A stretch of 64,000 bases of DNA, from the NCBI RefSeq assembly GCF_056746865.1, contig NZ_CM163382.1. One strand, 5' to 3'. The stretch's first letter is position 1, and each line of letters begins with the position of its first letter. Under the pieces are notes generated by a model that did no database searches, was not told the DNA's origin, and was given only the letters and a program-made list of their open reading frames with translations. A program made the translations under genes and the position numbers. This document shows positions 5,806 through 58,516 of the stretch, in pieces.

Positions 5806-5841
5806 GTAGGCCGGATAAGGCGTTAACGCCGCATCCGGCAT
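5806..5841. repeat. REP-like palindromic unit (gtaggccggataaggcgttaacgccgcatccggcat)
   Basis: characteristic enterobacterial REP motif GCCGGATAAGGCG...GCATCCGGC between convergent genes. Confidence 0.6.
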
Positions 5842-5913
5842 AAACACAGGCACCTTGTCACCAATCTGAAACCAGCGTCATAAAAAGCCGATTGCTACTC
5901 GACAAGACGTCCA

Positions 5914-8670: not shown

Positions 8671-8726
8671 GGAGTTCCGTTATGGGACAATTAAGGTCAC
8701 ACTGTTAAATTGAGAAAGTCTCGCCA

Positions 8727-10028
8727 ATGGCGCAATTCTACTCTGCAAAACGACGCACGACGACGCGTCAGATCATAACTGTTTCAGTCAACGACCTCGA
8801 CTCTTTTGGTCAGGGCGTGGCACGACATAACGGCAAAGCGTTATTTATTCCTGGATTACTGCCACAGGAAAACGCGGAAGTTACTGTTACTGAAGATAAA
8901 AAACAATACGCCCGCGCTAAAGTCGTACGCCGGTTAAGCGATAGCCCGGAACGCGAAACGCCACGCTGCCCTCATTTTGGCGTATGCGGCGGCTGTCAGC
9001 AACAACACGCCAGCGAGGATTTACAGCAGCGAAGCAAAAGTGCGGCACTCGCCCGATTAATGAAACACGAGGTCTCTGAAGTGATCGCCGATGTTCCCTG
9101 GGGCTATCGCCGTCGCGCGCGTTTAAGTTTGAACTACTTACCGAAAACACAGCAACTTCAGATGGGGTTTCGCAAAGCGGGCTCCAGTGACATTGTCGAC
9201 GTTAAACAATGTCCCATTTTAGTGCCCCAACTTGAAGCATTGCTGCCCAAAGTCAGGGCATGCCTGGGCAGCTTACAAGCTATGCGCCATCTTGGTCATG
9301 TTGAACTGGTACAGGCAACCAGCGGCACGCTGATGATTTTGCGCCATACCGCACCGCTAAGTTCGGCAGATCGCGAAAAACTGGAACGCTTTTCGCATTC
9401 TGAAGGCCTGGATCTGTATCTCGCCCCCGATAGTGAGATACTCGAAACCGTCTCTGGTGAGATGCCCTGGTATGACTCAAACGGGTTGCGCTTAACTTTT
9501 AGCCCGCGCGATTTTATTCAGGTCAATGCGGGTGTGAACCAAAAAATGGTAGCGCGTGCGTTGGAATGGCTGGATGTGCAACCTGAAGATCGCGTACTGG
9601 ATCTGTTCTGCGGTATGGGCAACTTTACACTGCCATTGGCGACACAAGCTGCCAGTGTGGTGGGTGTAGAAGGTGTTCCGGCGCTGGTGGAAAAAGGCCA
9701 GCAGAATGCGCGTCTTAATGGCTTACACAATGTGACGTTTTATCACGAAAATCTTGAAGAAGATGTCACAAAGCAGCCGTGGGCGAAAAACGGCTTCGAT
9801 AAAGTGTTGCTGGACCCGGCGCGAGCAGGTGCCGCAGGAGTTATGCAGCAAATTATAAAACTGGAACCTATTCGTATAGTTTATGTATCCTGTAACCCTG
9901 CAACGCTGGCTCGGGATAGCGAAGCGTTATTAAAAGCAGGATATACCATTGCGCGACTGGCGATGCTGGATATGTTCCCACACACGGGACATCTGGAATC
10001 GATGGTACTTTTCTCGCGCGTTAAATAG
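8727..10028 (+). CDS. rlmD: 23S rRNA (uracil1939-C5)-methyltransferase RlmD (RumA)
   Basis: 433-aa ORF; TRAM-like N-terminus, Fe-S cysteines ([11 protein letters not shown]), SAM-MTase core. Confidence 0.95.
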
Positions 10029-10075
10029 TTACGATTTGCCGATTTCGGCAGGTCTGGTCCCTAAAGGAGAGGACG

Positions 10076-12310: not shown

Positions 12311-12405
12311 TCTTACATAGCTGGATATGGCGTCAGCCGTATCCAGCGATATCTTTTACTCGAAGGTATTACACCTGACAGACCCGCAATTTTCAGGACA
12401 TTCTA

Positions 12406-13197
12406 ATGAATCAAATCGACCGTTTGCTCACTATTATGCAGCGCCTGCGCGATCCGGAAAACGGCTGCCCGTGGGATAAAGAGCAGACATTTGCCACCAT
12501 TGCGCCTTACACCCTTGAAGAAACCTACGAGGTGCTGGACGCCATCGCCCGTGAAGATTTTGACGATCTTCGCGGTGAACTGGGCGATCTGCTGTTCCAG
12601 GTGGTGTTTTACGCACAAATGGCTCAGGAAGAAGGGCGCTTTGACTTTAATGATATATGCGCCGCGATCAGCGATAAATTAGAACGTCGCCATCCGCATG
12701 TTTTTGCTGACAGTTCTGCCGAAAATAGTAGTGAAGTGCTTGCCCGTTGGGAGCAAATCAAAACCGAAGAGCGCGCGCAGAAAGCGCAGCATTCGGCGCT
12801 GGACGATATTCCTCGTAGTTTACCGGCTTTAATGCGTGCGCAAAAAATCCAGAAACGTTGCGCCAACGTTGGTTTTGACTGGACGACGCTTGGTCCGGTA
12901 GTCGATAAAGTCTACGAAGAGATCGACGAGGTGATGTACGAGGCACGGCAGGCTGTTATCGACCAGGCTAAACTGGAGGAGGAAATGGGCGACCTGCTGT
13001 TTGCCACGGTCAATCTGGCTCGTCATTTAGGGACAAAAGCGGAAATCGCATTGCAAAAAGCGAACGAAAAATTCGAGCGTCGTTTTCGCGAAGTGGAGCG
13101 TATTGTTGCCGCGCGTGGACTGGAAATGACAGGTGTTGACCTCGAAACAATGGAAGAAGTCTGGCAACAGGTAAAACGGCAGGAAATTGATCTCTAA
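12406..13197 (+). CDS. mazG: nucleoside triphosphate pyrophosphohydrolase MazG
   Basis: 263-aa ORF with tandem MazG EE..E motifs; starts only 95 bp after relA stop. Confidence 0.9.
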   Translation: MNQIDRLLTIMQRLRDPENGCPWDKEQTFATIAPYTLEETYEVLDAIAREDFDDLRGELGDLLFQVVFYAQMAQEEGRFDFNDICAAISDKLERRHPHVFADSSAENSSEVLARWEQIKTEERAQKAQHSALDDIPRSLPALMRAQKIQKRCANVGFDWTTLGPVVDKVYEEIDEVMYEARQAVIDQAKLEEEMGDLLFATVNLARHLGTKAEIALQKANEKFERRFREVERIVAARGLEMTGVDLETMEEVWQQVKRQEIDL

Positions 13198-13409
13198 GGG
13201 AATTACGTGGTCAAGCGCGATTTGTGTCATTTTTTAAATGACAAGCGCTTGATTTGCGTCAAAAACATTTACCCCAAAGGGGCTATTTTCTCACTCCTGA
13301 TTTCAATAGTGCGCTGGCGAAGAGGAGGGATAATGAAAGTTTGTGGCACAGGTCATGTTCGGGTATACTGCTTTCCCGTCCTGGTTATTCCATCGTCTTT
13401 TCAACCTAA

Positions 13410-15062
<1,653 letters not shown>

Positions 15063-15081
15063 GAAAAAAGTTAGAACGGCA

Positions 15082-39677: not shown

Positions 39678-39884
39678 CGAGCAGCATTCCTGATTTTAAA
39701 CGTGAACGCCGCTGGAAGAATTATCAGGTATAGAATGGCGTTGGGTGCTTGAGGCTGTCTGGCGTTAAGCATTCGCGAGGTTCCAGATGGACAAAAGCCC
39801 CAGGCGATATTTCTATCAACCTGAGGCCAGCGTTCGAACCTAAGCAATTCGAATGTTAGTCTCTTCTTTGCAGGGAGGCAAGAC

Positions 39885-40037
39885 ATGCTGACAAAATATG
39901 CCCTTGTGGCAATCATCGTACTGTGTTGTACAGTACTGGGATTCACGCTGATGGTAGGCGACTCGTTGTGTGAGTTGAGTATCAGAGAACGTGGTATGGA
40001 GTTTAAGGCAGTTCTCGCTTACGAATCGAAGAAGTAG
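39885..40037 (+). CDS. Hok/Gef-family type I toxin (HokE-like), 50 aa
   Basis: ATG at 39885 preceded by AGGGAGG Shine-Dalgarno; [50 protein letters not shown] has the single TM helix and the Hok signature ...SLCE...E..AVLAYES.K; not listed in the ORF track because it is under the length cutoff. Confidence 0.75.
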
Positions 40038-40058: not shown

Positions 40059-41397
40059 CATAAGCGCTAACTTAAGGGTTGTGGTATTACGCCTGATATG
40101 ATTTAACGTGCCGATGAATTACTCTCACGATAACTGGTCAGCAATTCTGGCCCATATTGGTAAGCCCGAAGAACTGGATACTTCGGCACGTAATGCCGGG
40201 GCTCTAACCCGCCGCCGCGAAATTCGTGATGCTGCAACTCTGCTACGTCTGGGGCTGGCTTACGGCCCCGGGGGGATGTCATTACGTGAAGTCACTGCAT
40301 GGGCTCAGCTCCATGACGTTGCAACATTATCTGACGTGGCTCTCCTGAAGCGGCTGCGGAATGCCGCCGACTGGTTTGGCATACTTGCCGCACAAACACT
40401 TGCTGTACGCGCCGCAGTTACGGGTTGTACAAGCGGAAAGAGATTGCGTCTTGTCGATGGAACAGCAATCAGTGCGCCCGGGGGCGGCAGCGCTGAATGG
40501 CGACTACATATGGGATATGATCCTCATACCTGTCAGTTCACTGATTTTGAGCTAACCGACAGCAGAGACGCTGAACGGCTGGACCGATTTGCGCAAACGG
40601 CAGACGAGATACGCATTGCTGACCGGGGATTCGGTTCGCGTCCCGAATGTATCCGCTCACTTGCTTTTGGAGAAGCTGATTATATCGTCCGGGTTCACTG
40701 GCGAGGATTGCGCTGGTTAACTGCAGAAGGAATGCGCTTTGACATGATGGGTTTTCTGCGCGGGCTGGATTGCGGTAAGAACGGTGAAACCACTGTAATG
40801 ATAGGCAATTCAGGTAATAAAAAAGCCGGAGCTCCTTTTCCGGCACGTCTCATTGCCGTATCACTTCCTCCCGAAAAAGCATTAATCAGTAAAACCCGAC
40901 TGCTCAGCGAGAATCGTCGAAAAGGACGAGTAGTTCAGGCGGAAACGCTGGAAGCAGCGGGCCATGTGCTATTGCTAACATCATTACCGGAAGATGAATA
41001 TTCAGCAGAGCAAGTGGCTGATTGTTACCGTCTGCGATGGCAAATTGAACTGGCTTTTAAGCGGCTCAAAAGTTTGCTGCACCTGGATGCTTTGCGTGCA
41101 AAGGAACCTGAACTCGCGAAAGCGTGGATATTTGCTAATCTACTCGCCGCATTTTTAATTGACGACATAATCCAGCCATCGCTGGATTTCCCCCCCAGAA
41201 GTGCCGGATCCGAAAAGAAGAACTAACTCGTTGTGGAGAATAACAAAAATGGTCATCTGGAGCTTACAGGTGGCCATTCGTGGGACAGTATCCCTGACAG
41301 CCTACAAAACGCAATTGAAGAACGCGAGGCATCGTCTTAACGAGGCACCGAGGCGTCGCATTCTTCAGATGGTTCAACCCTTAAGTTAGCGCTTATG
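40059..41397 (+). mobile_element. IS186 (IS4 family), ~1.34 kb
   Basis: 23-bp terminal inverted repeats CATAAGCGCTAACTTAAGGGTTG / CAACCCTTAAGTTAGCGCTTATG; transposase matches recalled IS186 InsL; inserted in a G-run/C-run palindrome. Confidence 0.9.
40114..41226 (+). CDS. IS186 transposase
   Basis: ORF 40108..41226 begins at a GTG; preferred ATG at 40114 (MNYSHDNWSAILAHIGKPEEL...). Confidence 0.85.
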   Translation: MNYSHDNWSAILAHIGKPEELDTSARNAGALTRRREIRDAATLLRLGLAYGPGGMSLREVTAWAQLHDVATLSDVALLKRLRNAADWFGILAAQTLAVRAAVTGCTSGKRLRLVDGTAISAPGGGSAEWRLHMGYDPHTCQFTDFELTDSRDAERLDRFAQTADEIRIADRGFGSRPECIRSLAFGEADYIVRVHWRGLRWLTAEGMRFDMMGFLRGLDCGKNGETTVMIGNSGNKKAGAPFPARLIAVSLPPEKALISKTRLLSENRRKGRVVQAETLEAAGHVLLLTSLPEDEYSAEQVADCYRLRWQIELAFKRLKSLLHLDALRAKEPELAKAWIFANLLAAFLIDDIIQPSLDFPPRSAGSEKKN

Positions 41398-47553: not shown

Positions 47554-47630
47554 ATGAGCCAATATTTGATTTTTCAGCTTCATGGGCCAATGGCATCCTG
47601 GGGCGTCGATGCCCCGGCGAAGGGAACAAT
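47554..47630 (+). pseudogene. cas5e: cas5e (casD) 5' fragment: only about 24 N-terminal codons retained; breakpoint approximate
   Basis: MSQYLIFQLHGPMASWGVDAPAKG parallels the Cas5e N-terminus (MRSYLILRLAGPMQAWG...); the frame then runs into unrelated low-complexity sequence and stops at 107 aa; no cas6e/cas1/cas2 follow. Confidence 0.7.
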
Positions 47631-48113
47631 ACAACATCACACAAGGCCAGTAATAGCGCGAATCCTGCGAGTTCTAAAATCAATTCTATACACATTTCTA
47701 TACACATTTATCCCTCGCTTGAGGGTTATGCGTCATCGTTATCGGCTATCTCGCTGGTGGATGATCACGGATGGCCTGATATCTACAGCCGCCTTAAAAA
47801 GCTGTACCCGACAAGCATTACTGCGTATCGGGTTCGTTCGCTCTTTCTACTCGTGGCAGATGAGTTTATCGGTGTGATTTTATCGGGCGAGGGTATTGTA
47901 TCAGGCATCCCCTTTTCTATGCAGATTTGCATAGTTCCGAATGGTGGCGTTATGGAAGCCTCCCATATCAGCATCATGCCCACCAGCGTGAAGTATTTTT
48001 TTATTTCGCGGGTGTAAAAATTTGACGAGGCGGGCGGTCCCATAAGCAATGGATTGTAGGGATTTCGCTCCCCCCCTCCTGAATGCAATTTTTCGTATAT
48101 ATATACAAAACAG

Positions 48114-48270
48114 TGCGGGTTATGCGGGTTACCGGGTTATCTTAGTATGCTAACTATTTTTTGTTCTTTAGTATCAATATGTTGCAAAATACACTGTTCA
48201 TTATTCAAGCATCACATAACCCGCAAAACATCCCAAATAACCCGCAAACGCCCCAAAATAACCCGCAAAC
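48114..48270. repeat. iteron cluster A: GCGGGTTA(T/C) direct copies (48114-48140) and three inverted copies phased at 21 bp (48216, 48237, 48258), next to an AT-rich TATATATATA tract
   Basis: read directly: cagtgcgggttatgcgggttaccgggttat ... cataacccgcaaaacatcccaaataacccgcaaacgccccaaaataacccgcaaac. Confidence 0.65.
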
Positions 48271-48878
48271 ACATTGCTGAAAGCAGGGGTTGATAGTTCC
48301 ACTGGTGCCACAGAACGGCTGAATACGGTAACTGTTGCTGGTGGTCTGTCCTGTTGTCGTTCCAGTCTCATCAAATTGAGAGGCAAGACAAAGTGCATTT
48401 TTGCACTATAGCCAAAGCCTCATAAAACAGAGTTACCCCCACAGGCTGGCAAACCATTACCCAACGCAATTAAGTGCGTCAGAATCGATTACAGCGCGTT
48501 CCTGTGGCACGTTGTTGCCGTTCTCAGCAGTGAAAGGAGAGAGTGAAAAGCGCATATCTATTACTGTTGAGGGGTGTAGCGGCATATATCGCGAATATCC
48601 ACGCCCTTAATCCCGATACCGTCACGGCGCATTGAGATCCACCAGAAGATTAAGATAGTTTTTACCTGAAATTATCCAAATAATTGTTTTAACTGATTAA
48701 TTTTTCGAATATCTATTGTTAGGGAATAAATCATCAGATACACCATAAAACGACATCTTTCAGGGTGTAGAAGATGCAAAGCCGGTACTGAAGAAAAGAC
48801 AAAGAATATGAATGGCTGGCCACACGATGGAAGGATTGTCCATTGAAGGATAAATCCCCGTGGTACAAGTTTTGGTAA

Positions 48879-48899
48879 GCCCGCAGCGCGGGCTTTTTT
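48879..48899 (+). terminator. rho-independent terminator on + strand (gcccgc-agc-gcgggc + TTTTTT)
   Basis: read directly; no convincing ORF upstream of it. Confidence 0.65.
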
Positions 48900-48971
48900 G
48901 TGGACGAAACAAAAGTCAGTGCTACATTCATTGACGCCACATCGAGGTGGCTTATAGATGGAAATTTCACA

Positions 48972-49133
48972 ATGAAAAAAGCATTTGCTGCACTGTTCGT
49001 TTTGTTGTCTCTGGTAGCTTCAACTCAGGCCTTTGCCGGTCGTTGTCAGCACGACAGCGATACTGCCGCTGACGGCTCCCGCTGCGGTGGGCGTTCTGCG
49101 GATTCCCGCCCGGGCGGCGGTGGCATTCGTTAA
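48972..49133 (+). CDS. small secreted peptide (53 aa precursor): signal peptide then ~30-aa Cys-containing, Gly-rich mature region
   Basis: ATG at 48972 inside ORF 48900..49133; MKKAFAALFVLLSLVASTQAFA | GRCQHDSDTAADGSRCGGRSADSRPGGGGIR; followed by a hairpin terminator. Confidence 0.45.
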   Translation: MKKAFAALFVLLSLVASTQAFAGRCQHDSDTAADGSRCGGRSADSRPGGGGIR

Positions 49134-49136
49134 AAA

Positions 49137-49156
49137 CAAGGCCGCGAAAGCGGCCT
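49137..49156. terminator. bidirectional hairpin terminator (aggccgc-gaaa-gcggcct) between convergent small-peptide gene and cargo operon
   Basis: perfect 7-bp stem; T-tracts on both strands. Confidence 0.7.
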
Positions 49157-49162
49157 GTTTGA

Positions 49163-50014
49163 TCACTGTGCAGTTTTCGCTGATCGATTTTCAGCTCTAA
49201 ATTCAAGAACCGTTTCAATATTTCTTTCCTTCAGCATATCAATAACATTTTTATTCATTTGACTATCACTGGTTAATAACTGGTAAACGTTGCTTCTCTC
49301 TTTATCAGAATTTTCTTTAACAGCTGCTTTGCATGCCAAATGCTTATTGAAATTTTCTACATCGCTAGTACAGGAATTTACGGCTGCTGATGAAATATCA
49401 GACGCTGAAGAAACACCATCATCCAAACGTTTTATAGCATTTTCTATACATGAGTTAAGGGAATAAACGACAACTGAGCGATACCCTTCAGACGCACACC
49501 ATTCTAAATTTCTTGAAGGATCGAGTGGTTTTACTTCGCTGGATTGAATTAACTTGTCAAAAACTGACTTATATTCAATCTGTTTTTTATCTATAGCCCA
49601 TACTTCAGTAGCTGATTTATAATTCCCCGTATGCCTATTAACATCAAATCCATGTTTTATAAGCAAATCTGCCCATGAAAGATTTATTGATTCATTGTTA
49701 TGAGGCCATTTTCCTGTCAGAACCGCCCCCATAGACCCCATATATCCGCCATATGATGGTATAGCACCATGGCTCAGTAACTTCTCAGCAACCACAGGGC
49801 AATTAATTACATAAGAGGCGTAAAGCCCATTCCATAAAGCCCCTCTATAGTAATCGCCACGATTAGGTTCTTTTAAGTCGATAGCCTTTGATAATTGTTC
49901 ACACGTTTTGCATGCATCAAAGTTATCCTTATTGCATTGCAATGAACTGGCGGCTGTAGGATTTACAGAGACTATTGAAAGCACTATGCCAAAAAACAAA
50001 TTTATTTTTTTCAT
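49163..50014 (-). CDS. secreted Cys-rich protein of unknown function (283 aa), last gene of cargo operon
   Basis: N-terminal signal peptide (MKKINLFFGIVLSIVSVNPTAA); 8 Cys; strongly AT-rich codon usage; ATG one base after upstream stop (TAGGATG). Confidence 0.7.
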   Translation of the reverse strand: MKKINLFFGIVLSIVSVNPTAASSLQCNKDNFDACKTCEQLSKAIDLKEPNRGDYYRGALWNGLYASYVINCPVVAEKLLSHGAIPSYGGYMGSMGAVLTGKWPHNNESINLSWADLLIKHGFDVNRHTGNYKSATEVWAIDKKQIEYKSVFDKLIQSSEVKPLDPSRNLEWCASEGYRSVVVYSLNSCIENAIKRLDDGVSSASDISSAAVNSCTSDVENFNKHLACKAAVKENSDKERSNVYQLLTSDSQMNKNVIDMLKERNIETVLEFRAENRSAKTAQ

Positions 50015-50015
50015 C

Positions 50016-53000
50016 CTATTTCATCTGCTCTTCAACTTTATTTAGTAATGGTGATATCGCCCACAGATTCTGAAAAGGTAGCATTTTACGGACAGCGTGG
50101 GTTTGCTGGCTGTCAAATTCTCCGTTAAGTACACCATTTGCAACCGTCGCGGCATCACCGCCAAGATCAAAGGTAGGACCAAGTAAAGCACCAATAGCAT
50201 TACGACTCTGAAACCTTGATACCGGAGGCGCACCAAACATCGCGCCAAGACCAAACCTACCGCCGCTTATGTTCTCAACGGTATTCAGCGGCTCAGAGAG
50301 CCAGCCAAGCATTCCGCCCCGGTCGATCCCCTCTTTCACAAGGTTATTCCAGCTGTAGTCGATATCGCGACCGCTTAACTTCTGTTTCATCATATAGACC
50401 ATTGAGCCAAGCGCAATCGTGCCAAGCGCACCAAGATAGAATGAAGCATCGCCCTGCTGGATACCAGATACCAACACCCTGTTATGCTGTGCGAAGATAA
50501 ACGTTTTGAACTGCGTGATCATCTTCCAGCCTTCTTTACTAAAAAACAGCGGTGTATCACCTACGCCAGGCGTTACAATCACTGAGTCTACATCTTTCAG
50601 CACTGCAGACTGGAAAATCTCTCTAGCGAAACGGTCATCCCACAGATGACTATGCCCGGTTAACAGCCCGTCCATATCCTCTCCGTGCTTCCCGAATTGC
50701 TCCCCGATTCGGCGCAGAACATCTTCATTGATGCCGACCTGTGCCATCTTCCGCATTTCACTTTTGGCGAGCGTGCCACCAGCAGAAACCTGGCGAGCCG
50801 CGTCAAGTATCCTCGACTGCACTATCATCCCGGACCATGATTTAAGTGCGCTGTTCCACTGATTCATCAGCGTCCAGTTACCGAATTTCTGCGTCATCCA
50901 GTTCAGGCCTCGCTCAGCGGCGCTTCTCCGGCTATAGGGGTCAGTAAGATCCGCTATAGCCTTTGTACGCGTAGACAGGACATAATCAAGCCCAACGGCC
51001 ATTTCTCGCAAATCCCTGGTTGCAATTTTCACTGAGTCCATATTTTTAAGCATGCTTACCATTGGTCCGAGAGATTTTCTCAGGCCATGCTGCATCATCG
51101 GTCGCATCAGATCAGTTGCAGCGGAGACGGTCATTCCACCAAGCAAACGGAGGAAGTTAATATTCCTAGCAACTCGCCCGGCACGAACAAAGAAACTGCG
51201 TGGATCTTGAGGTGCGCCGTAAGTACCAAGCAGTCGGTCACGCATAGCCGTAATATCCCTAATATCAGCCTCCCGTTGCTTCTCAAGAGCTGCACGTCGT
51301 TTAGGTGTTTTAGCCTCTTTTATTAGCCGGGTATATTCCTCACTAACCTGACGGATTTGCTCCCCCATATCTTTACGGCCAAACTGCGCAGTCAGCTCAA
51401 TTTCTGGTGCCACCTGCCGGAGATAACTTTCCATGATGTAGTTAACATCTGATTCAAGAAAATCTTCTATACGCTCATCAGGAATAAGCAGCGTTCGGCT
51501 TTTAGTGAAACCAGCCCGACCAACGAGTCTCTCTGGGATAATATCGGCTGGTACAAGCCCGGAAGGTGCGCCTATTATTTTATTCACGATCTCGTCAGCA
51601 GCGTCCTCTGCTTCCTCTCGGGATAGAGGCTCCATCTGCTTCAGTGCTCGCTCGCGGCTTGCATTCAGCCTTGTGGTTGAATTTGCCCGTTTTTGCAGTC
51701 GGCGAAGCTCAGAACGATATTTCCGTGGATTATCCAGCAACTCCATATGGCGCTGATAGACAGGAAGCTCACTCTTTGCCTGCGCTATATCATCAAGGCG
51801 TGTTTTAAGGTCAGAGCTTTCTTTCATCATTCTTGCCTGAAGTTTTTCTGATGAAGTCTCGGCCAACTCTTTTTCTATTCTTGTAAGACGCGCCTGTGTG
51901 TCAGTCTCCTGAGATATAAGCTTATTTCGTTTATCCAGTTCTTCCATGAGTAGAATTTTTTTACCAGACCATTTCTCCGCTTCAGCGATTTCACTAGCGA
52001 GAGCATCAGCGCGCGGTGCCGATTCCTCTGCAGTTTTTAGCAATGAATTTATCCTTTCAATTCGCTGACCTGCTTTGTCAGCACCTTTGGCACTAATCCC
52101 TTGTATCCAGTTGGCAATTCGCCCTCTGAATTCAGTGCGGTCGGAAAGTATCTTATCGAACTTATAAATGCGGGGAAGATAACTTTTCGCCGTCACGACA
52201 TCGATATCCTCAGGAAGGATCCCCAGTTCCTGCATACGGGCTTTTGTGGTCTCGAAAATGGGGCGGATTCTGGCGGCTGCTTGTGAAACCTCAGGAATAT
52301 CACTCTGATCACCACGGCGCATAGCCATGCCAACAGCTTCATTGAAATCAATAAAGCTCATCCTCTTCACGCCGCGGGCGCTGACAGATTTGCTGTACTG
52401 CTGGTAAGCATCACGAGTGGCTTCCATCTGCTTATAAAGCATGGCGTCGTATTGCTTAATCTTAGTCTCGACTGCCGTAAACGTAGCCAACCCCTCATCA
52501 TTTTTGGCGAAGAAATAGTTATTTTCGGCAAGCTGCTGGTTAATCTGACGGGAGACAAGAGATGGTGATTGCGCCAAGCGGCCAGCAGGAGTGACACTCA
52601 ACGTTTTGTTAGCAAGTCCAAGTCCAGCGAGCTGTTCCTGATCGAGTGTGGTATTGAAAACCTGAGCTGCACCAATGCTTTGAGGAGAATCCATACCTCG
52701 CAAATGATTACCTACTGAGTTAACCACTGCCTCGCGCGCGCTAGGTCCAGCAAGTAGCTGTGCACCAGCACCAAGGATCCCACCAACGAGAGCATCAACA
52801 ACAACGTTCGATACGCTCTCCATCGGTGAGCGAGCTTCCTGAGTGGCCTGCAATGCGGCCTCTGAAGCAACACTGCCAGCAGCATTGGCTAAAGCAAAAC
52901 GTCCGGCTGTTTCTGCAATACGACCGCCACGAACGACAGCGCCGAACGGAATAAACATAGAAATCGCATTGAATGGATCTGCTAATCTCATTGCTACAGA

Positions 53001-53405
53001 AGAGACTGTACCAGCAAATCCCAAGCCTGAATTGTATTCCATGTCAGCTCTCTGCTGATCGATTCGATGTTTAATTGCCATTGTTTCTTCAGGCGAACCG
53101 GAGTTGATAAACGAATCTGCAAAATCTTCATAGCCTTTAATATCTGCTGCATCGTTATCAAATGGGTTATATCCTTCAATCCTGTCAAACTGACTGAAAG
53201 GAGCACTGGCAATAAAGCTACCCAGCGTGTTATCTATACGAAATGCTGCTTGTCTAGACCTTTGAACGCGTTGATCACTGGTAAATGGGTTCACAGCAGA
53301 AAGCAAAGAAGGTGTTTCCATATAGAAATTACTGTCATCAGGTGCTGCTATTTGCTGAATATCCTCGCCAAGCAACTCTTTAGGATCCTGTTCATATATC
53401 GGCAT
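50016..53405 (-). CDS. large protein of unknown function (1129 aa), predicted alpha-helical with Gly-rich hydrophobic C-terminal region
   Basis: long uninterrupted ORF; start overlaps upstream stop (TAATG); Q/A/E/R-rich; C-terminal hydrophobic/glycine-rich segments (GALGTIALGSMVYMM, GGRFGLGAMFGAPP); no NTPase motifs seen. Confidence 0.8.
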   Translation of the reverse strand: MPIYEQDPKELLGEDIQQIAAPDDSNFYMETPSLLSAVNPFTSDQRVQRSRQAAFRIDNTLGSFIASAPFSQFDRIEGYNPFDNDAADIKGYEDFADSFINSGSPEETMAIKHRIDQQRADMEYNSGLGFAGTVSSVAMRLADPFNAISMFIPFGAVVRGGRIAETAGRFALANAAGSVASEAALQATQEARSPMESVSNVVVDALVGGILGAGAQLLAGPSAREAVVNSVGNHLRGMDSPQSIGAAQVFNTTLDQEQLAGLGLANKTLSVTPAGRLAQSPSLVSRQINQQLAENNYFFAKNDEGLATFTAVETKIKQYDAMLYKQMEATRDAYQQYSKSVSARGVKRMSFIDFNEAVGMAMRRGDQSDIPEVSQAAARIRPIFETTKARMQELGILPEDIDVVTAKSYLPRIYKFDKILSDRTEFRGRIANWIQGISAKGADKAGQRIERINSLLKTAEESAPRADALASEIAEAEKWSGKKILLMEELDKRNKLISQETDTQARLTRIEKELAETSSEKLQARMMKESSDLKTRLDDIAQAKSELPVYQRHMELLDNPRKYRSELRRLQKRANSTTRLNASRERALKQMEPLSREEAEDAADEIVNKIIGAPSGLVPADIIPERLVGRAGFTKSRTLLIPDERIEDFLESDVNYIMESYLRQVAPEIELTAQFGRKDMGEQIRQVSEEYTRLIKEAKTPKRRAALEKQREADIRDITAMRDRLLGTYGAPQDPRSFFVRAGRVARNINFLRLLGGMTVSAATDLMRPMMQHGLRKSLGPMVSMLKNMDSVKIATRDLREMAVGLDYVLSTRTKAIADLTDPYSRRSAAERGLNWMTQKFGNWTLMNQWNSALKSWSGMIVQSRILDAARQVSAGGTLAKSEMRKMAQVGINEDVLRRIGEQFGKHGEDMDGLLTGHSHLWDDRFAREIFQSAVLKDVDSVIVTPGVGDTPLFFSKEGWKMITQFKTFIFAQHNRVLVSGIQQGDASFYLGALGTIALGSMVYMMKQKLSGRDIDYSWNNLVKEGIDRGGMLGWLSEPLNTVENISGGRFGLGAMFGAPPVSRFQSRNAIGALLGPTFDLGGDAATVANGVLNGEFDSQQTHAVRKMLPFQNLWAISPLLNKVEEQMK

Positions 53406-56152
53406 TATTTGCCCCCTGCGTATATATTGCTCGGAAGGTAATTGGCTGAACCATAACCGAATGGTTTGGTCAGATCTGGAGGAGTATATCCATCTTTATT
53501 GCTGAACTGCGGCAGCGGATTGCCTTCTCTCCGCACTCTAGCCTCATCAACACGCTGTTGCTGGAACTGAATGGTTTGCCTGTACATTGGAGATGTCAGC
53601 TGATCCGGCTTGAAACGAACAGGGAGACCATTTTCTCCAATATAATTTCTCGGTTCTATCGCTCCGTTTGCGTCAGGCTGTAAAACCATAACAGCATAAC
53701 TCCTATCCCTTGCCGTAAGGCCATCAGAAACAAGTATTAAGTCCGTATCACTGCGAGGACCGCCAAAGGATTTTGATTTAAGCTCGCGTTTTTCCTGCTC
53801 CCACTGCCCCTGTATCCAGTTACCAGCACCATTATTTACTCCGTACAATGCCTCAGGTGCATACTTCATAACCTCTGCTTTGCCATTAACCGTAGAAACT
53901 CCCCAGGTGGTTCTGATCATGGCATTGGTCATTTTCTCAGCCTGTTCTGCATCGCCACCTGTCTGTACAAAGTTAGCATCGTAAATTGTCTGGTAATCTC
54001 GCTGATAGGCCGCATTTGATTTTCCTGGATCGGTAATATCCGGAGACCACGAACCAAAGGAAGTCAGACTGCTGGCGTTATTTTGTGCAGCAGTTACCCT
54101 CGCCGCGACATATTTTTTGTCTCGCATGGCAGTGGAAAGCATCTGTTTCATTCGGTCATCCTGTTGGAACACCTGACTGTAAGCCATATCAACAGCCTTA
54201 TCCTCCGGCACGCCAGCGCGGGAATAATCGTAAACCTTGCCATAAAATGCCATCGTACTTTTATCAAGTGTTGCCGCTGCCGCCGGATTATTATCGAATA
54301 ACTGACCGTAGAATTTTGCCATCGGGACAACCAGCGCAGGATCTCTTGATGTTGCTCCACTGTTAAGCATTGTTTTAACCTGAGTTGGTATCATGCCGCT
54401 TTTAGTTGTGACGGTGACCAGTGTATTGATGCTCTGCGGATCAGATATGGAAAACGAAGGCGCGATATCCTGCGCGAAATAACGGTCTACCGCTGCCTGA
54501 TTGTTTTTGTCGTTCGGGTCCAGCGGGAAGTTATTTTGCATTGAAGACACGAACCTGTTTCTTCCCTGCTGAATCTCCCACTCCCTATCCATCTCTTTAA
54601 ATTTGGCCTGCATTTTCTCCCAGCGTTGCTGGTTAGCAGCAAATCCAGGAGCATTTGGATCCTGTGGACGTAAACGTTCAAGAATGTCTTGTCGTCCTTC
54701 TGGAGTGAGGTCTTTAGCGGCACCAATGACACCTCCATATTGTATCTGCGCCTGCATATCCTTCCACTTCATAGCGCCAATGCGCGGACCATTGGCCCGG
54801 ATAAAATCGTCCTCAGAAGGTAACTTCTCAGGTTTCAATCCTTCATCAAGGGCTGAATATGCATCTTTAACTACGGTGCTAAGCTGGTCCGCATACTGCT
54901 GGCGGTACTGATTTCTCAGCTCATTAGCCTGCCTCAATGCCTGTATTTGCATTTGAGGGCTCATAGCATCAAATGCCGCATTGCCCGTATAACGCTTAGG
55001 TGAATCAAGGTTAGTTAGACCAAGGGCTGCCGAGATACCAGTTTCAAGCTGTTCGGTGCTATAAGGCATACTGCCATTTTCGTGTTTAATAATCCCAGCA
55101 CATAAAGCAGCTAGTGTCTTTGGGTTAGAGATATCAAGCTGATCATTCTCCCCAACACCAAGCTCACCACACAATGCCCTAATATAAGCATCAGTATTAT
55201 TACCATCACTAGCCGGAGCATAGCGATTAACAATCTCGCTAACGGTGTCATAGCCTTGACGCTGGTAAGACAACATATTTTTACCCAACGCGCGGATTCC
55301 ATGCTCAGGGGTAGCAAACGTTGCAAAACGTCCATCGCTACCGATCTGACCTTCCCACGGGTTAGATTTGCTCGCTTCAATATTACCAGGGTTATTATTA
55401 CGTAAACCACGAGCATCCAATGAATTACCATGTGATATTGCACGACTCACACCATCAAGATCCCCTGGCTCTCCATTAACCTGAAGAAACTCGTTGTATT
55501 TTTGAGCGATATTTCCTATCCATGCTTGCTGCCCCATTTGTTCCTTGAGCTGAGTTTTCTGCTGAACACGCCACTCATCAGGAAGCCCATGCGCATCAGC
55601 GTATTGATCAATAGATTCAAATCGCTGCTTGGCTAAATCGACAAATGCTTGGTTATAGCTATATAGCCCCGCAGACTGAGTGACAGCCAATGCATTTCCT
55701 GACAAATACGTTTGATCTTGGAATTGCTGAAACTGCCCAACTTCATATCGACGTGCCTGATTGTAATAAGACTGCATAGACTGCTGGAGTTGAAAGGATA
55801 ATTTATTCCTTTCCTCACTTTCAGGGATTGAGCCTAATAATGCCTGAGCCCTTTCCTGCATATTTTTCATAACAGCGTCACTCTGACCAAGAGCGTTTTT
55901 ACCCTGTTTAGAAATCAGCCCATTTTCAGGGTTGTTAATCTGGTCATCTGCAAATTGGTTAAATTGCAGTAACGCCTCCTGGGCCATAGCAACATTCGCT
56001 TTCTGCCTGGCTTCACCATATGCCACCGCATACTGATCTGCGACATTCGCCAGCACCTGACCTGCTTGAGGAACATCGAAGGTCTGAAAACCACCGGTTT
56101 GCACACCACGACTTTGCACCTGGCGTCCGGATGTAGTAGGAACAACAAGCAT
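53405..56152 (-). CDS. large protein of unknown function (915 aa), Q/N/A-rich
   Basis: ATG at 56152 preceded by TAGGAGGT Shine-Dalgarno; contains conserved-looking block RGLRNNNPGNIEASKSNPWEGQ...; no NTPase motifs seen. Confidence 0.8.
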   Translation of the reverse strand: MLVVPTTSGRQVQSRGVQTGGFQTFDVPQAGQVLANVADQYAVAYGEARQKANVAMAQEALLQFNQFADDQINNPENGLISKQGKNALGQSDAVMKNMQERAQALLGSIPESEERNKLSFQLQQSMQSYYNQARRYEVGQFQQFQDQTYLSGNALAVTQSAGLYSYNQAFVDLAKQRFESIDQYADAHGLPDEWRVQQKTQLKEQMGQQAWIGNIAQKYNEFLQVNGEPGDLDGVSRAISHGNSLDARGLRNNNPGNIEASKSNPWEGQIGSDGRFATFATPEHGIRALGKNMLSYQRQGYDTVSEIVNRYAPASDGNNTDAYIRALCGELGVGENDQLDISNPKTLAALCAGIIKHENGSMPYSTEQLETGISAALGLTNLDSPKRYTGNAAFDAMSPQMQIQALRQANELRNQYRQQYADQLSTVVKDAYSALDEGLKPEKLPSEDDFIRANGPRIGAMKWKDMQAQIQYGGVIGAAKDLTPEGRQDILERLRPQDPNAPGFAANQQRWEKMQAKFKEMDREWEIQQGRNRFVSSMQNNFPLDPNDKNNQAAVDRYFAQDIAPSFSISDPQSINTLVTVTTKSGMIPTQVKTMLNSGATSRDPALVVPMAKFYGQLFDNNPAAAATLDKSTMAFYGKVYDYSRAGVPEDKAVDMAYSQVFQQDDRMKQMLSTAMRDKKYVAARVTAAQNNASSLTSFGSWSPDITDPGKSNAAYQRDYQTIYDANFVQTGGDAEQAEKMTNAMIRTTWGVSTVNGKAEVMKYAPEALYGVNNGAGNWIQGQWEQEKRELKSKSFGGPRSDTDLILVSDGLTARDRSYAVMVLQPDANGAIEPRNYIGENGLPVRFKPDQLTSPMYRQTIQFQQQRVDEARVRREGNPLPQFSNKDGYTPPDLTKPFGYGSANYLPSNIYAGGK

Positions 56153-56248
56153 CAGTAACCTCCTATTTTGAATCGGGAGTCAGAATTCATAAAACCTGAG
56201 TTAGATAACATTGGCGTCCCTCTGCTTTGATGCTGTACCAGCGATTCA

Positions 56249-56580: not shown

Positions 56581-56785
56581 CTGTGCTTACTTCTGGTAGT
56601 TACGCCATACTGATTTCCCGATCCCATCTATCCCCATTTCTTTTTCAGTGCGTTTAAGCGACCGTTTCAGGTCTTCTAAATTATCCGGTTGCTTCGGTGG
56701 CCTCTGTGCCTTCCTGGAACATTCCAGTCGTCGCATTGATATTTGACATCCTCCACGCCCTGAAGGACGTGGATTCCTGCTACGT

Positions 56786-57994
56786 TCAGGCTGTCGCCTG
56801 AATCATTTCGGTGGGTTCCTGCTTCAACGGGCGGCCTGACTGCACCATCCCTCCACAGGCAAGAACGGCGTGCCCCGCCGCTAAAATGTTACGAGCGCCG
56901 TTTACATCGGCGTTCGCTGTATATCCACATACCTGGCATCTGAATTGACTTTGTGACAGGCGATTTTCTTTCGCTGTATGACCACAGCACGCGCAACGCT
57001 GGCTTGTGTACGCTGGCGGAACAGCAAGCACCTGACCGCCACACCAGAGCTGCTTGTACTCAAGCTGACGGCGCATTTCATACCAGCCCTGATCCAGTAT
57101 CGAACGGTTTAAACCTGATTTTGCCCGGACATTGCGCCCCGGCTGGCTGACCGTACCCGAGGCTGACTTTGACATGTTGCTGACCTTCAAATCCTCAATG
57201 ACTATCATTGCGTGGTTTTTGCTGATGGTCGTTGTGACTTTGTGAAGGTAGTCCCTGCGGATATTTGCGATACGGGAATGCAGTCGCTGTATTTTGCGTT
57301 TCTGCTTCTGCCAGTTGTTGCTGAATTTAACCTTGCGGCTTAACTGGCGCTGAAGTCTCGCCAGCTTCTTCTGGTTTTTATGAAAACTGTTTACAGGCTC
57401 AAAGACCGTGCCATCTGACAGCGTGGCGAGTTTAGCCACGCCAGCATCCAGCCCGACCATTAATGCTGAAGGGTGAACCGGAGTTGATACTTCACTTTCT
57501 GTCTGAATACTGATGTACCACTTACCGCAGGACTGGCTGACAGTGACATTTTTCACAACACCCGTGACCTGACGGCTGTTCCGGTAGCGCATCCAGCCCA
57601 GTTTCGGCAGAAAAATACGGCTGTTTTCCTGATCGAGCTTAACACCCTGCGGATAGCGGAATGCATCATGCTGTCCCCGCTTTTTGAATCGGGGAAAAGC
57701 GGCACGCTTCTGAAAGAAATTTTTGTAGGCTCGCTCAAGGTCTTTCAGTGACTGCTGCAATGGCTGTGAGGGAGAATCTTTAAGCCATTGCGTTTCAGTA
57801 GCATTTTTCCATTCAACCAGCCAGGAAGTCATCTTTGCATAAGAAATATATTTGTTCCCGGCCTCATGATTCTCATTCTGAAGCGCCAGAGCACGATTGA
57901 AAACGAAACGACATGCGCCCGCGAAGCGCCTCATTTCACGCTCCTGTTTTCCATTTGGTCTTAACTGGAATTTGAAAGCTTGTAGTCGTTTCAT
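56786..57994 (-). CDS. tnpB: TnpB (OrfB), RuvC-like RNA-guided nuclease of IS200/IS605 elements
   Basis: 402-aa ORF; C-terminal zinc-finger cysteines (CACCGH...CQVCGY) and RuvC-like blocks. Confidence 0.85.
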
Positions 57995-58016
57995 ATGCCA
58001 AATTATACTTTGGCCT

Positions 58017-58433
58017 ATGAAAAAAGAAACCGATATCCGACGTGGAAGGCACTGTGTCTTCCTGATGCACGTTCACCTGGTCTTTGTTACCAAGTACCGA
58101 CGCCAGATTTTTGACCATGACGCAATAGAAAAACTACGCACTTACTTTTCAAGTGTATGTGCTGATTTTGAAGCTGAACTGGTTGAAATGGATGGAGAAC
58201 GAGATCACGTTCACCTGCTAATTAACTATCCTCCCAAATTGGCGATATCCACCCTGGTGAACAGTCTCAAGGGCGTATCGAGTAGATTATTGCGACGAGA
58301 TCGACCAGATATTGCAGTCAGGTATTACTACAAAGGCGTTTTATGGAGTCCCAGCTATTTTGCCAGTAGCTGCGGAGGTGCGCCAATATCCATCATCCGC
58401 CAATACATTGAACAACAGCAAACACCTAGTTAG
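58017..58433 (+). CDS. tnpA: IS200/IS605 TnpA, Y1 HuH transposase
   Basis: ORF 57897..58433; preferred ATG at 58017 (MKKETDIRRGRH...); HuH motifs (HVHLVF, HVHLLI) and C-terminal catalytic Tyr region (RQYIEQQ). Confidence 0.85.
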   Translation: MKKETDIRRGRHCVFLMHVHLVFVTKYRRQIFDHDAIEKLRTYFSSVCADFEAELVEMDGERDHVHLLINYPPKLAISTLVNSLKGVSSRLLRRDRPDIAVRYYYKGVLWSPSYFASSCGGAPISIIRQYIEQQQTPS

Positions 58434-58516
58434 GTGGAAAACCGCGCCTTATATCCCCGACCTGAAGGACGGGGCTTTACGGCGCACTGGGTAATTACTC
58501 TGTTCGCTGTTGTGAA

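What the first reader, a model, noticed from the sequence alone, without database searches (positions are those of the whole stretch)
48600..49160. Non-coding stretch ending in a strong + strand terminator, and a small secreted Cys/Gly-rich peptide gene, convergent with the cargo operon
A GC hairpin with T6 tail at 48879-48899 has no plausible ORF upstream, which suggests a small RNA of about 100-200 nt. Immediately after it, a 53-aa precursor (signal peptide plus a 30-aa mature peptide with two Cys and a Gly-rich tail) ends at a bidirectional terminator shared with the cargo operon. Either could be a regulator or immunity-type factor of the element.
Basis: seen in the sequence. Interest (0 to 1): 0.35.

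Follow-up and report, generated by a model that had tools for sequence, protein, structure and literature searches.

The report
Recombination scar plus phage moron peptide
The "orphan" terminator belongs to a truncated phage gene left behind at a recombination junction, and the 53-aa ORF is a real, widely conserved small secreted protein of temperate phages carried along as a passenger, so the region is ordinary mobile-element patchwork and not a regulatory RNA or an immunity factor of the element.

Summary

**The terminator.**
- It lies at 48877-48899, with an 8-bp stem, T6 and -13.4 kcal/mol.
- It directly follows the last 25 codons plus the stop (48801-48878) of a DUF4760 gene. These codons are 100% identical to the intact gene of epsilon15/phiV10-like (Uetakevirus) prophages.
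- It is therefore that gene's terminator. The gene's 5' 154 codons were lost at the junction between a PICI-like satellite and a captured phage segment.
- Upstream lie a 168-bp AT-rich filler and a 16-codon remnant of another satellite gene.
- There is no Rfam match, no structure signal beyond the hairpin, and no conservation outside one E. coli clade.

**The 53-aa ORF (48972-49133).**
- It equals RefSeq WP_000708858.1, phage TL-2011b gp43 and phrog_14503.
- It occurs in about 500 of 5,426 complete E. coli genomes.
- Homologues occur in Klebsiella, Cronobacter, Pectobacterium, Dickeya and Salmonella phages.
- It is under strong purifying selection (dN/dS about 0.02-0.10).
- It has its own conserved -10 element, a 5'UTR hairpin and a terminator, which makes it a classic phage moron.
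- Its 2-Cys core is an unnamed domain with no Pfam or PDB match.
- About 37 of the roughly 44 related satellites have lost the gene, so it is not the element's regulator.

Its molecular function remains unknown.

The parts
48585..48632 (-). 16-codon remnant (MRRDGIGIKGVDIRDI) of the 94-aa last gene found at the distal end of other E. coli PICI/cfPICI satellites; a pseudogene fragment
   Evidence: tblastn of the 94-aa proteins of L005 and L006 gives 12/16 identical residues, E = 5e-5. DNA matches of 88-92% to those genes. The overlapping 30-aa + strand ORF (48543-48635) is frameshifted in L001.
48633..48800 (.). AT-rich filler (32% G+C) between two gene remnants; no ORF; origin unknown
   Evidence: Stops in all six frames and 32% G+C. 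Found only in about 44 closely related E. coli records. Absent from phages and from the divergent satellites L005-L007. One weak promoter-like match at 48632-48659, 9 of 12 positions.
48801..48878 (+). Last 25 codons plus TAA of a DUF4760-family gene (3' pseudogene fragment). Position 48801 is the left junction between satellite DNA and captured phage DNA
   Evidence: tblastn gives 100% identity to the last 25 residues plus stop of the 179-aa WP_000947646.1 (PF15956, E = 8e-31). DNA is 98% identical from 48801 onward to prophage L003.
48877..48899 (+). Intrinsic terminator of the DUF4760 gene. In phages it is the conserved right boundary of a slot where different morons are exchanged
   Evidence: 8-bp stem plus T6, -13.4 kcal/mol. 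In phages with YafO, DUF2335 or other upstream genes, homology to the window starts exactly at this hairpin. It is degraded in the deletion-variant satellites.
48920..48928 (+). Putative extended -10 promoter element (TGcTACATT) of the peptide gene
   Evidence: The TAnnnT hexamer is invariant in 17 diverged upstream regions at a fixed distance from the hairpin and the ATG. This is inference from sequence; no transcript data.
48936..48951 (+). Conserved 5-bp stem-loop (GCCAC-ATCGAG-GTGGC) in the predicted 5' UTR of the peptide mRNA
   Evidence: 86% of cells paired. Two pairs show compensatory changes (CG to UA in 4 sequences; AU to GC or GU). GC/GU alternation at the base. Covariation 0.277 against 0.199 in shuffles (0 of 500 reach it); slid controls are 0.10 or lower. 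Other lineages have different hairpins at the same place.
48972..49133 (+). 53-aa small secreted or membrane-face protein gene (identical to WP_000708858.1; phrog_14503). Signal peptide 48972-49037, mature 31 aa 49038-49130
   Evidence: phrog_14503 E = 2e-40. Present in 505 of 5,426 E. coli genomes, in TL-2011b gp43 and other Uetakevirus phages. Homologues across Enterobacterales. dN/dS 0.02-0.10 in the mature part with saturated dS.
49139..49156 (.). Hairpin terminator shared by the peptide gene and the convergent virion-protein operon
   Evidence: Conserved in phages including phiV10, where the depositors annotate a terminator at the homologous place.
49163..56152 (-). Context: the 'cargo operon' is three phage internal-virion / ejection protein genes (283, 1129 and 915 aa) captured from a Uetakevirus-like phage
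   Evidence: phrog_6118, phrog_342 and phrog_1044. 99.4-99.8% DNA identity to prophages over window 48876-56221.
47608..47626 (.). Context: distal att core of the satellite (copy of the glyU tRNA-Gly 3' end) joined to truncated cas5e
   Evidence: 19-bp direct repeat with the tRNA-Gly end in L002. Junction sequences. cas5e homology ends at 47622.

Best explanation
The interval is the left edge of a roughly 7.4-kb piece of an epsilon15/phiV10-like (Uetakevirus) temperate phage that a PICI-like satellite acquired by recombination.

**Shown.**
- Satellite DNA runs to 48800. It contains a 16-codon remnant of the satellite's own last gene and 168 bp of AT-rich filler.
- From 48801 the sequence is phage DNA. 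It starts inside a DUF4760 moron gene, so only that gene's last 25 codons, its stop and its intrinsic terminator survive. This accounts for the 'terminator without an ORF'.
- Next comes a complete, independent moron: a conserved TAnnnT -10 element, a small 5'UTR stem-loop, the 53-aa gene, and a hairpin terminator shared with the convergent phage internal-virion protein genes.
- The gene is under strong purifying selection.
- It is spread among many temperate phages of Enterobacterales.
- It is dispensable for the satellite, since most relatives have deleted it.

**Inferred.**
- The product is exported by the Sec pathway and cleaved after AFA, or else stays signal-anchored.
- Either way, a 28-aa core closed by one disulfide (C-x12-C, then GGRSADSRPGG) is placed at the periplasmic face of the inner membrane.
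- Like other prophage morons beside tail or ejection genes, it is made by the lysogen and acts on the envelope. My best guess is superinfection exclusion or another envelope-directed lysogenic-conversion function.
- That last step is a guess from location, topology and analogy only.
For: **Junction and truncated gene**
- Window 48801-48878 equals the C-terminus of the intact 179-aa DUF4760 protein (100% aa), followed by the same terminator.
- Upstream of 48801 the satellite and the phage are unrelated.

**Terminator as a moron-slot boundary**
- In 80 IMG/VR phage loci the gene upstream of the hairpin is YafO (23), DUF4760 (11), DUF2335 (5) or something else (41).
- The hairpin, the 72-nt spacer and the peptide gene stay constant across these loci.

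**No evidence for an sRNA**
- No Rfam match at gathering score; nothing better than E = 0.27 in permissive mode.
- Fold z-scores are -1.0 for 234 nt and -1.8 for 110 nt, terminator included.
- The stretch is absent from divergent satellites.
- The hairpin is degraded in L002 and L194.
- The satellite's ProQ/FinO gene, a possible sRNA partner, is deleted in this window by an IS200/IS605 insertion.

**The peptide is a real gene**
- Identical to WP_000708858.1.
- phrog_14503, E = 2e-40.
- 57 clusters across Enterobacterales, with an invariant mature core and a variable signal peptide.
- In the mature part pS is 0.57-0.89 against pN of 0.02-0.18.

**The gene has its own expression signals**
- Invariant TAnnnT, and a hairpin with compensatory and G-U changes.
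- Terminator.

**Dispensable for the satellite**
- 48900-49094 is deleted in L002, L193, L194 and L195.
- Only 7 of about 44 satellite-bearing genomes keep the full region.
Against: - No transcript or protein data exist. A spurious or even functional RNA starting in the AT-rich filler (weak promoter-like site at 48632-48659) and ending at 48899 cannot be excluded by sequence alone.
- The origin of 48633-48800 is unexplained.
- The function of the peptide is unsupported by any homology. Pfam, NCBIfam, PADLOC and PDB all gave nothing.
- The AlphaFold2 models are of low to moderate confidence (pLDDT 64 and 71), with no structural neighbour.
- Cleavage of the signal peptide is inferred. NCBI's name for the family ('transmembrane anchored protein') implies an uncleaved anchor.
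- The promoter lacks a good -35 element, and the tool's consensus scan did not call it.
Confidence: 0.82

Rival explanations
1. An independent small RNA gene of about 100-250 nt is transcribed from the AT-rich stretch and ends at the 48877-48899 terminator. It acts as a regulator of the element, perhaps as a 3'-end-type RNA bound by a ProQ/FinO protein.
For: - The terminator is strong.
- A weak sigma-70-like site lies at 48632-48659.
- Related satellites encode a ProQ/FinO-family protein.
- The stretch is 94-98% conserved in about 44 genomes.
Against: - The 3' 78 nt are the coding end of a DUF4760 gene and the terminator is that gene's own.
- There is no structure signal and no Rfam family.
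- Conservation is no higher than in the flanks, and only among near-identical satellites. The stretch is absent from divergent PICIs.
- The hairpin is weakened or lost in most relatives.
- The ProQ/FinO gene is deleted in this window.
- Promoter-like sites in the region are fewer than in shuffles: 3 against 6.5.
Confidence: 0.05
2. The 53-aa peptide is a regulator or immunity factor of the satellite itself, for example one that controls its induction or protects its host against the products of the adjacent operon.
For: It lies adjacent to and convergent with the virion-protein genes and is intact in the window.
Against: - The gene is deleted in most related satellites while the adjacent genes stay intact.
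- The same protein, identical in sequence, sits in about 420 phage contexts in E. coli.
- It also sits next to quite different genes in other prophages: tail genes, lysis cassettes, RelB/YafQ.
- It has no DNA- or RNA-binding features and is exported.
Confidence: 0.04
3. The peptide is a bacteriocin/microcin-like toxin or a phage-phage signalling (arbitrium-like) pro-peptide.
For: It is small, carries a signal sequence, is rich in Cys and Gly, and is phage-borne.
Against: - It has a Sec-type leader and not a double-glycine leader.
- No immunity, export or receptor gene is consistently adjacent.
- The whole 28-aa core is conserved, not a short C-terminal peptide.
- The core also occurs as a domain of 100-300-aa envelope proteins, which does not fit a diffusible toxin or signal.
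Confidence: 0.03
4. The peptide gene is a real moron, but its role is not exclusion of incoming phage. The 2-Cys domain could be a metal-binding (Ca2+) or peptidoglycan- or membrane-surface-binding module. It might alter envelope properties for host fitness, or serve the phage's own assembly or lysis.
For: - The D-x-D/A-x-DG-x-x-C pattern recalls the DxDxDGxxC Ca-binding loop of Excalibur. This is from my own knowledge and is not a tested match.
- The domain follows signal peptides or TM helices in many non-phage proteins, one of them with SH3_3 domains.
Against: No Pfam hit to Excalibur or anything else even at E <= 10, and no structural neighbour. Nothing distinguishes this reading from the exclusion hypothesis.
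Confidence: 0.3

Closest known systems
Escherichia phage TL-2011b gp43 / RefSeq WP_000708858.1 / PHROG phrog_14503 ('membrane associated protein', moron category)
   Same: Identical 53-aa sequence. Same neighbourhood in phages: a variable moron (YafO, DUF4760 or DUF2335), then the terminator, then the peptide gene, convergent with the internal-virion protein operon.
   Different: Here the cassette sits in a PICI-like satellite and not in a phage, and the moron upstream is truncated. No function has been reported for the family.
Phage morons (autonomous promoter-gene-terminator cassettes inserted between phage operons, such as lambda bor/lom and the HK97 morons; concept from my own knowledge)
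   Same: Own -10 element and terminator. Presence or absence varies among otherwise collinear phages: phiV10 lacks the gene but keeps the terminator. G+C is 58% against 32-47% in the flanks. Location is between the late operon and the tailspike.
   Different: Expression from the prophage is not shown, and the phenotype is unknown.
Small periplasmic or envelope superinfection-exclusion proteins of phages (T4 Spackle, T5 Llp, phi80/N15 Cor, TP-J34 Ltp; my own knowledge)
   Same: Works-like analogy only: small, phage-encoded, exported by a signal peptide, and encoded beside genes for the DNA-ejection machinery.
   Different: No sequence or structural similarity. Not a lipoprotein, since no Cys lies at +1 of a lipobox. 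Exclusion has not been tested.
3'-end-derived or terminator-containing sRNAs bound by ProQ/FinO or Hfq (RaiZ, CpxQ, FinP; my own knowledge)
   Same: A strong intrinsic terminator at the end of a coding-derived sequence, and ProQ/FinO genes in related satellites.
   Different: There is no 3'UTR, since the stop codon abuts the hairpin. There is also no conserved processing site or promoter, no structure signal and no Rfam family, and the ProQ/FinO gene is absent here.
Gram-negative PICIs (EcCICFT073, EcCIEDL933, EcCIMP1; PMC11773190)
   Same: The host element has, in relatives, an integrase at a tRNA gene, antirepressor and Bro genes, an Icd-like gene, a DUF927 primase, SSB and PerC. It has no capsid or lysis genes and is about 18 kb.
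   Different: It carries phage internal-virion (ejection) protein genes. In this window it sits in cas5e and not at glyU. Helper dependence is not tested.

Membership tests
Rho-independent (intrinsic) terminator | G+C-rich stem-loop immediately followed by a U-tract | tested here: met
   48877-48895 stem of 8 bp (6 G-C) plus T6; -13.4 kcal/mol, z = -2.65.
Rho-independent (intrinsic) terminator | Lies just downstream of the stop codon of a gene on the same strand | tested here: met
   TAA at 48876-48878 of the DUF4760 reading frame overlaps the base of the stem. The arrangement is identical in the intact gene of L003.
Independent bacterial sRNA gene | Own promoter at a conserved distance from the terminator | tested here: inconclusive
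   One 9-of-12 consensus match at 48632-48659. The region has fewer such sites than shuffles. No divergent relatives are available to test conservation.
Independent bacterial sRNA gene | Sequence or structure conservation not explained by coding, or a match to a described family | tested here: not met
   The 3' 78 nt are DUF4760 coding sequence. Fold z = -1.0 and -1.8. No Rfam hit. The hairpin is lost in L002 and L194.
Independent bacterial sRNA gene | A discrete transcript | not testable with these tools
   No expression data available.
Protein-coding gene (small protein) | Purifying selection at the protein level across diverged homologues | tested here: met
   In the mature part pN is 0.02-0.18 against pS of 0.57-0.89, giving dN/dS of 0.00-0.10 where computable. 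16 invariant residues in 21 sequences.
Sec-type signal peptide (SPase I substrate) | Basic n-region, hydrophobic h-region of about 10-15 residues, small residues at -3 and -1 | tested here: met
   MKK / AFAALFVLLSLVA / STQ-A-F-A|G, read from the sequence. The pattern is kept in homologues while the residues vary. Modelled as a helix over residues 2-22. Actual cleavage is not testable here.
Bacterial lipoprotein (SPase II substrate) | Lipobox L-[AS]-[GA]-C with Cys at +1 | tested here: not met
   The first Cys is 3 residues after the A-F-A (A-G-R-C, or A-G-N-C in homologues).
PHROG phrog_14503 (moron; 'membrane associated protein') | Full-length HMM match | tested here: met
   E = 2.3e-40, residues 1-53 on profile positions 1-53 of 53.
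Phage moron | Autonomous cassette (promoter and terminator) present in some and absent from other collinear phage genomes | tested here: met
   Conserved TAnnnT and terminator. phiV10 has the terminator but not the gene. The gene is found in unrelated prophage backbones. Promoter activity is not testable.
Excalibur Ca-binding domain (PF05901) | Match to the Pfam model or its DxDxDGxxCE motif | tested here: not met
   No Pfam family at E <= 10 for the peptide or E <= 1 for 82 domain relatives. The motif here is D-x-A-x-DG-S-R-C-G.
Class II microcin / double-glycine-leader bacteriocin | GG/GA leader cleavage site with adjacent immunity and ABC-exporter genes | tested here: not met
   The leader is Sec-type. 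The neighbours are phage morons and virion genes.
Known anti-phage defence proteins (PADLOC) | Match to any PADLOC model | tested here: not met
   No hit for the peptide, DUF4760, DUF2335, YafO or the 283-aa protein.

The most novel reading that the evidence does not exclude
The 28-aa two-cysteine core of the peptide (G-x-C-x7-A-x-DGSRCG-x-R-[SA]-A-x-x-RPGG) is an undescribed periplasm-facing mini-domain. It is found in 376 protein clusters (at 50% identity), as stand-alone phage morons and as terminal modules of envelope proteins. In temperate phages it could be a new class of envelope-acting lysogenic-conversion or superinfection-exclusion factor, for example one that blocks the trans-periplasmic channel built by the ejection proteins encoded next to it.
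Probability: 0.15. Interest if true: 0.45.

Novelty: already known. Interest (0 to 1): 0.15.

Why it matters
For the finding itself, little. It shows that an apparent orphan terminator with a candidate sRNA is a truncated-gene scar. It also shows that the small ORF is an already catalogued, uncharacterised phage moron, and not part of the element's control circuitry.

Three things give it modest wider value.
- The terminator hairpin marks a recombination boundary where epsilon15/phiV10-like phages exchange morons, and where a satellite captured phage DNA.
- The peptide's core is a widespread domain with no Pfam or PDB entry, which would be cheap to test.
- The surroundings are more interesting than the finding: a PICI-like satellite that carries helper-type ejection-protein genes and is inserted in cas5e of a type I-E CRISPR-Cas operon.

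Tried and rejected
- **Rfam**, at gathering and permissive thresholds: nothing in 47600-49250. The best hit is a chance CRISPR-DR61 match at E = 0.27.
- **Folding of 48666-48899 and 48790-48899:** no signal beyond the terminator.
- **ProQ/FinO-partner sRNA idea:** related satellites encode ProQ/FinO, but in this window that gene is replaced by an IS200/IS605 insertion. The candidate RNA is also not conserved.
- **30-aa + strand ORF at 48543-48635** with a Shine-Dalgarno-like AGGAG: rejected. It is frameshifted in L001 and lies antisense to a gene remnant.
- **Searching for further DUF4760 or 94-aa-gene homology in 48633-48800:** only insignificant tblastn hits.
- **Protein-family and structure searches for the peptide** (Pfam, NCBIfam, PADLOC, PDB sequence search): no hits.
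- **AlphaFold2 from two alignments:** pLDDT 64 and 71, with only a tiny beta-bridge and a short helix.
- **Foldseek against PDB:** nothing below E = 8. The other fold libraries were not tried because of the low model confidence.
- **Context of distant small homologues** (P0060, P0063, P0073): short contigs, uninformative.
- **Names of larger domain-bearing proteins:** none informative.
- **5-codon upstream ORF (ATGGAAATTTCACAATGA)** overlapping the start codon: not conserved in Klebsiella, so dropped.
- **CsrA-type site in the conserved CTACACA...GGA leader:** considered but left untested.
- **Remnant of the T7-gp14-family gene at the right-hand junction (about 56220):** none found with the alleles available.
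- **Literature searches:** nothing on the peptide family, DUF4760 function, PICIs with internal virion proteins, or PICIs in cas5.
Full report
**Where the window comes from.**
- The left part of the window is E. coli chromosome in the order cysJ, cysI, cysH, sok RNA, an IS, cas3, cse1, cse2, cas7, and the first roughly 22 codons of cas5e. This rests on the ORFs, Rfam, Pfam and BLAST.
- From about 47616 to the end of the window lies a PICI-like satellite with a DUF927 primase, SSB and Bro-N genes.
- In close relatives the satellite is about 18 kb and is bounded by an integrase next to tRNA-Gly (glyU) on one side. On the other side a 19-bp copy of the tRNA 3' end lies next to yqeG.
- The finding (48600-49160) lies about 1 kb inside the integrase-distal end of this element.

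**Observation check.**
- The upstream hairpin with T6 is real and strong: stem 48877-48895, T6 48894-48899, -13.4 kcal/mol, and 1 of 200 shuffles folds as well.
- No intact ORF ends there.
- The 53-aa ORF (48972-49133) has a textbook Sec signal peptide, MKK-AFAALFVLLSLVA-STQAFA|G. Its mature part is 31 aa with two Cys and a Gly-rich tail.
- It is followed by the hairpin at 49139-49156, which lies 6 nt from the stop codon of the convergent 283-aa gene.
- That hairpin has a proper U-tract only on the - strand.

**What the 'orphan' terminator is.**
- Searching E. coli genomes with 48560-48905 showed that the last 105 nt recur elsewhere under the 3' end of genes annotated as DUF4760.
- In prophage L003 (NZ_LT599825) an intact 179-aa DUF4760 gene (PF15956, E = 8e-31) ends with ...KEYEWLATRWKDCPLKDKSPWYKFW-TAA. 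The same hairpin and then the same peptide gene follow it.
- Window 48801-48878 encodes exactly those last 25 residues plus the stop, at 100% aa and 98% nt identity. Homology starts abruptly at 48801. In the window this frame is closed by a TGA at 48789-48791.
- The terminator is therefore the DUF4760 gene's own, and the gene's first 154 codons are missing. The stop codon overlaps the stem, so there is not even a 3'UTR.

**What lies upstream of 48801.**
- Positions 48585-48632 on the - strand hold a 16-codon remnant (MRRDGIGIKGVDIRDI). It derives from a 94-aa gene that is the last gene of other E. coli PICI/cfPICI elements (L005, L006).
- Between the two remnants, 48633-48800 is 32% G+C with stops in all frames.
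- That stretch is present only in about 44 near-identical satellites. It is absent from phages and from divergent satellites.
- Folding gives no signal beyond the terminator: z = -1.0 for 234 nt and -1.8 for 110 nt.
- Rfam finds nothing.
- In the commoner variant of the satellite the hairpin is weakened (L193, L195) or destroyed (L002, L194).
- Related satellites encode a ProQ/FinO protein, which made an sRNA partner worth considering. In this window that gene, together with part of perC, has been replaced by an IS200/IS605 element.
- I therefore regard the small-RNA reading as not supported, though only transcript data can exclude it completely.

**The hairpin as a recombination boundary.**
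- The phage-derived segment of the window, 48876-56221, is 99.4-99.8% identical to epsilon15/phiV10-like prophages.
- In phages whose upstream moron is YafO (TL-2011b, pHL15EC-2), DUF2335 (Klebsiella BUCT711) or something else, similarity to the window begins exactly at the hairpin.
- Among 80 IMG/VR phage loci the upstream gene is YafO in 23, DUF4760 in 11, DUF2335 in 5 and other in 41. The hairpin, the 72-nt spacer and the peptide gene remain constant.
- The loop of the hairpin is found in both orientations (AGC and GCT).
- The terminator is thus the fixed right edge of a slot in which morons are exchanged. The satellite's junction at 48801 fell inside one such moron.

**The 53-aa gene.**
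- It is identical to RefSeq WP_000708858.1 and to TL-2011b gp43.
- It matches phrog_14503 end to end (E = 2e-40).
- It occurs in 505 of 5,426 complete E. coli genomes.
- It occurs in coliphages TL-2011b, phiv142-3, HEMP4 and EC.W1-9 and in three Klebsiella phages.
- Homologues at 68-93% identity exist in Shigella, Klebsiella, Citrobacter, Cronobacter, Franconibacter, Salmonella, Pectobacterium and Dickeya.
- In the latter lineages it sits in quite different prophage backbones: next to tail genes, a lysis cassette, or RelB/YafQ.
- The signal peptide varies while the mature core C-QHDSDTAADGSR-C-GGRSADSRPGG is almost invariant.
- Synonymous sites are saturated (pS 0.57-0.89) while pN is 0.02-0.18 in the mature part, giving dN/dS of about 0.00-0.10.
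- It is a real protein-coding gene.

**Its expression signals.**
- Aligning 17 diverged upstream regions shows an invariant TAnnnT hexamer (window TACATT at 48923-48928, preceded by TG at 48920-48921).
- Seven to nine nt downstream lies a 5-bp stem-loop (48936-48951).
- A conserved CTACACA-like motif and the ribosome-binding region follow.
- The stem shows compensatory changes at two pairs and GC/GU alternation at its base. Its covariation score exceeds all 500 shuffles and all slid controls. Other lineages have unrelated hairpins at the same position.
- G-U pairs argue for an RNA-level structure on the + strand, most simply a 5'-terminal stem-loop of the peptide mRNA.
- This evidence comes from a small helix and related sequences, so I rate it as suggestive.
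- With its own promoter-like element and terminator, a patchy distribution and a deviant G+C (58% against 32-47%), the gene fits the definition of a phage moron. phiV10 keeps only the terminator, which its depositors annotated.

**Relevance to the satellite.**
- Of the roughly 44 E. coli genomes with this satellite's distal arm, only 7 keep the whole 48100-49158 region.
- The others carry a clean deletion of 48900-49094 that removes the promoter and 41 of the 53 codons. Four of six sampled relatives show it.
- The peptide is therefore a passenger of the captured phage segment, not a regulator or immunity factor of the element.

**What the peptide might do.**
- A profile of the family finds 376 clusters (at 50% identity) with E <= 0.001.
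- The 28-aa core recurs in proteins of 100-300 aa, either at the C-terminus or directly after a signal peptide or TM helix, and sometimes in two or three copies.
- Its consensus is xGNCxxPxDxAxDGSRCGGRSAxxRPGG.
- It has no Pfam, NCBIfam, PADLOC or PDB relative.
- AlphaFold2 gives only moderate confidence and no structural neighbour.
- The topology, always extracytoplasmic and next to the membrane, and the location beside ejection and tail genes in prophages suggest an envelope-acting lysogen factor.
- I commit, with low confidence, to superinfection exclusion or an allied envelope-directed conversion function. A metal- or wall-binding role is the main alternative.

**Verdict.**
- The sRNA interpretation is not supported.
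- The peptide is real but is an already catalogued phage moron of unknown function, and it is dispensable for the element.
- Interest is low for the finding itself.
- Several features of the surroundings, listed under Noticed in passing, are more unusual.

Noticed in passing
window 47554-47626 (junction), with L007 (NZ_CP122722.1) 4215-15071: The satellite is inserted in cas5e of the type I-E CRISPR-Cas operon. cas5e homology ends at 47622 and the satellite's att core (a copy of the glyU 3' end) starts at about 47608, so they share the microhomology GGCGAAGG. E. coli ETEC1747 has a related PICI at the same cas5e position, with cas5e-cas6e-cas1-cas2-CRISPR continuing on the far side. This looks like a recurrent secondary attachment site that splits the Cascade operon.
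   Followed up: partly
window 49163-56152 (- strand); L001 17065-24726: The PICI-like satellite carries two or three large phage internal-virion / ejection protein genes (phrog_342, phrog_1044). They are 99.4-99.8% identical to epsilon15/phiV10-like prophages, and different alleles occur in different satellite copies. No paper on PICIs with ejection-protein genes was found in the library.
   Followed up: partly
window 48114-48267: An iteron-like array: three copies of TGCGGGTTA (48114-48140) face three copies of TAACCCGCA (48217-48267) across an AT-rich spacer of about 75 bp. The surrounding 47948-48323 is the only part of the distal arm conserved (80-89%) in unrelated E. coli PICI/cfPICI elements integrated elsewhere. 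It is a candidate replication origin or packaging site.
   Followed up: partly
window 56743-58490: An IS200/IS605-family element (TnpB of 402 aa at 56786-57994 on the - strand; Y1 transposase-like ORF at 57897-58433 on the + strand) replaces the 3' part of perC, a 138-aa ORF and the ProQ/FinO-family gene present in related satellites (L002 17992-18976).
   Followed up: partly
window 49038-49130 (mature peptide); proteins P0058-P0203: The mature peptide is a roughly 28-aa two-Cys domain (GxC-x7-AxDGSRCGxR[SA]A-xx-RPGG). It is found in 376 clusters at 50% identity, often at the C-terminus or just after a signal peptide or TM helix of 100-300-aa proteins. It has no Pfam model and no solved structure.
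   Followed up: partly
window 48900-49094 compared with L002, L193, L194, L195: Most copies of this satellite lineage share an identical 195-bp deletion that removes the peptide promoter and 41 codons. They also carry a different allele of the DUF4760 3' end (...WYKY**) with a weakened hairpin.
   Followed up: yes
window 39743-39900 and 40108-41226: A sok antitoxin RNA (Rfam RF01794, 111.7 bits) lies downstream of cysH. An IS with a DDE_Tnp_1 transposase (372 aa) lies between it and cas3.
   Followed up: no
window 48952-48971 and homologous 5' leaders (A3): A CTACACA-like motif followed by (A/U)GG(A/U)A lies between the 5'UTR hairpin and the start codon. It is conserved across Klebsiella, Cronobacter and Pectobacterium versions; the E. 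coli version reads TTATAGATGGAAA. It could be a translational control site and resembles CsrA-type ACA..GGA sites. Not tested.
   Followed up: no
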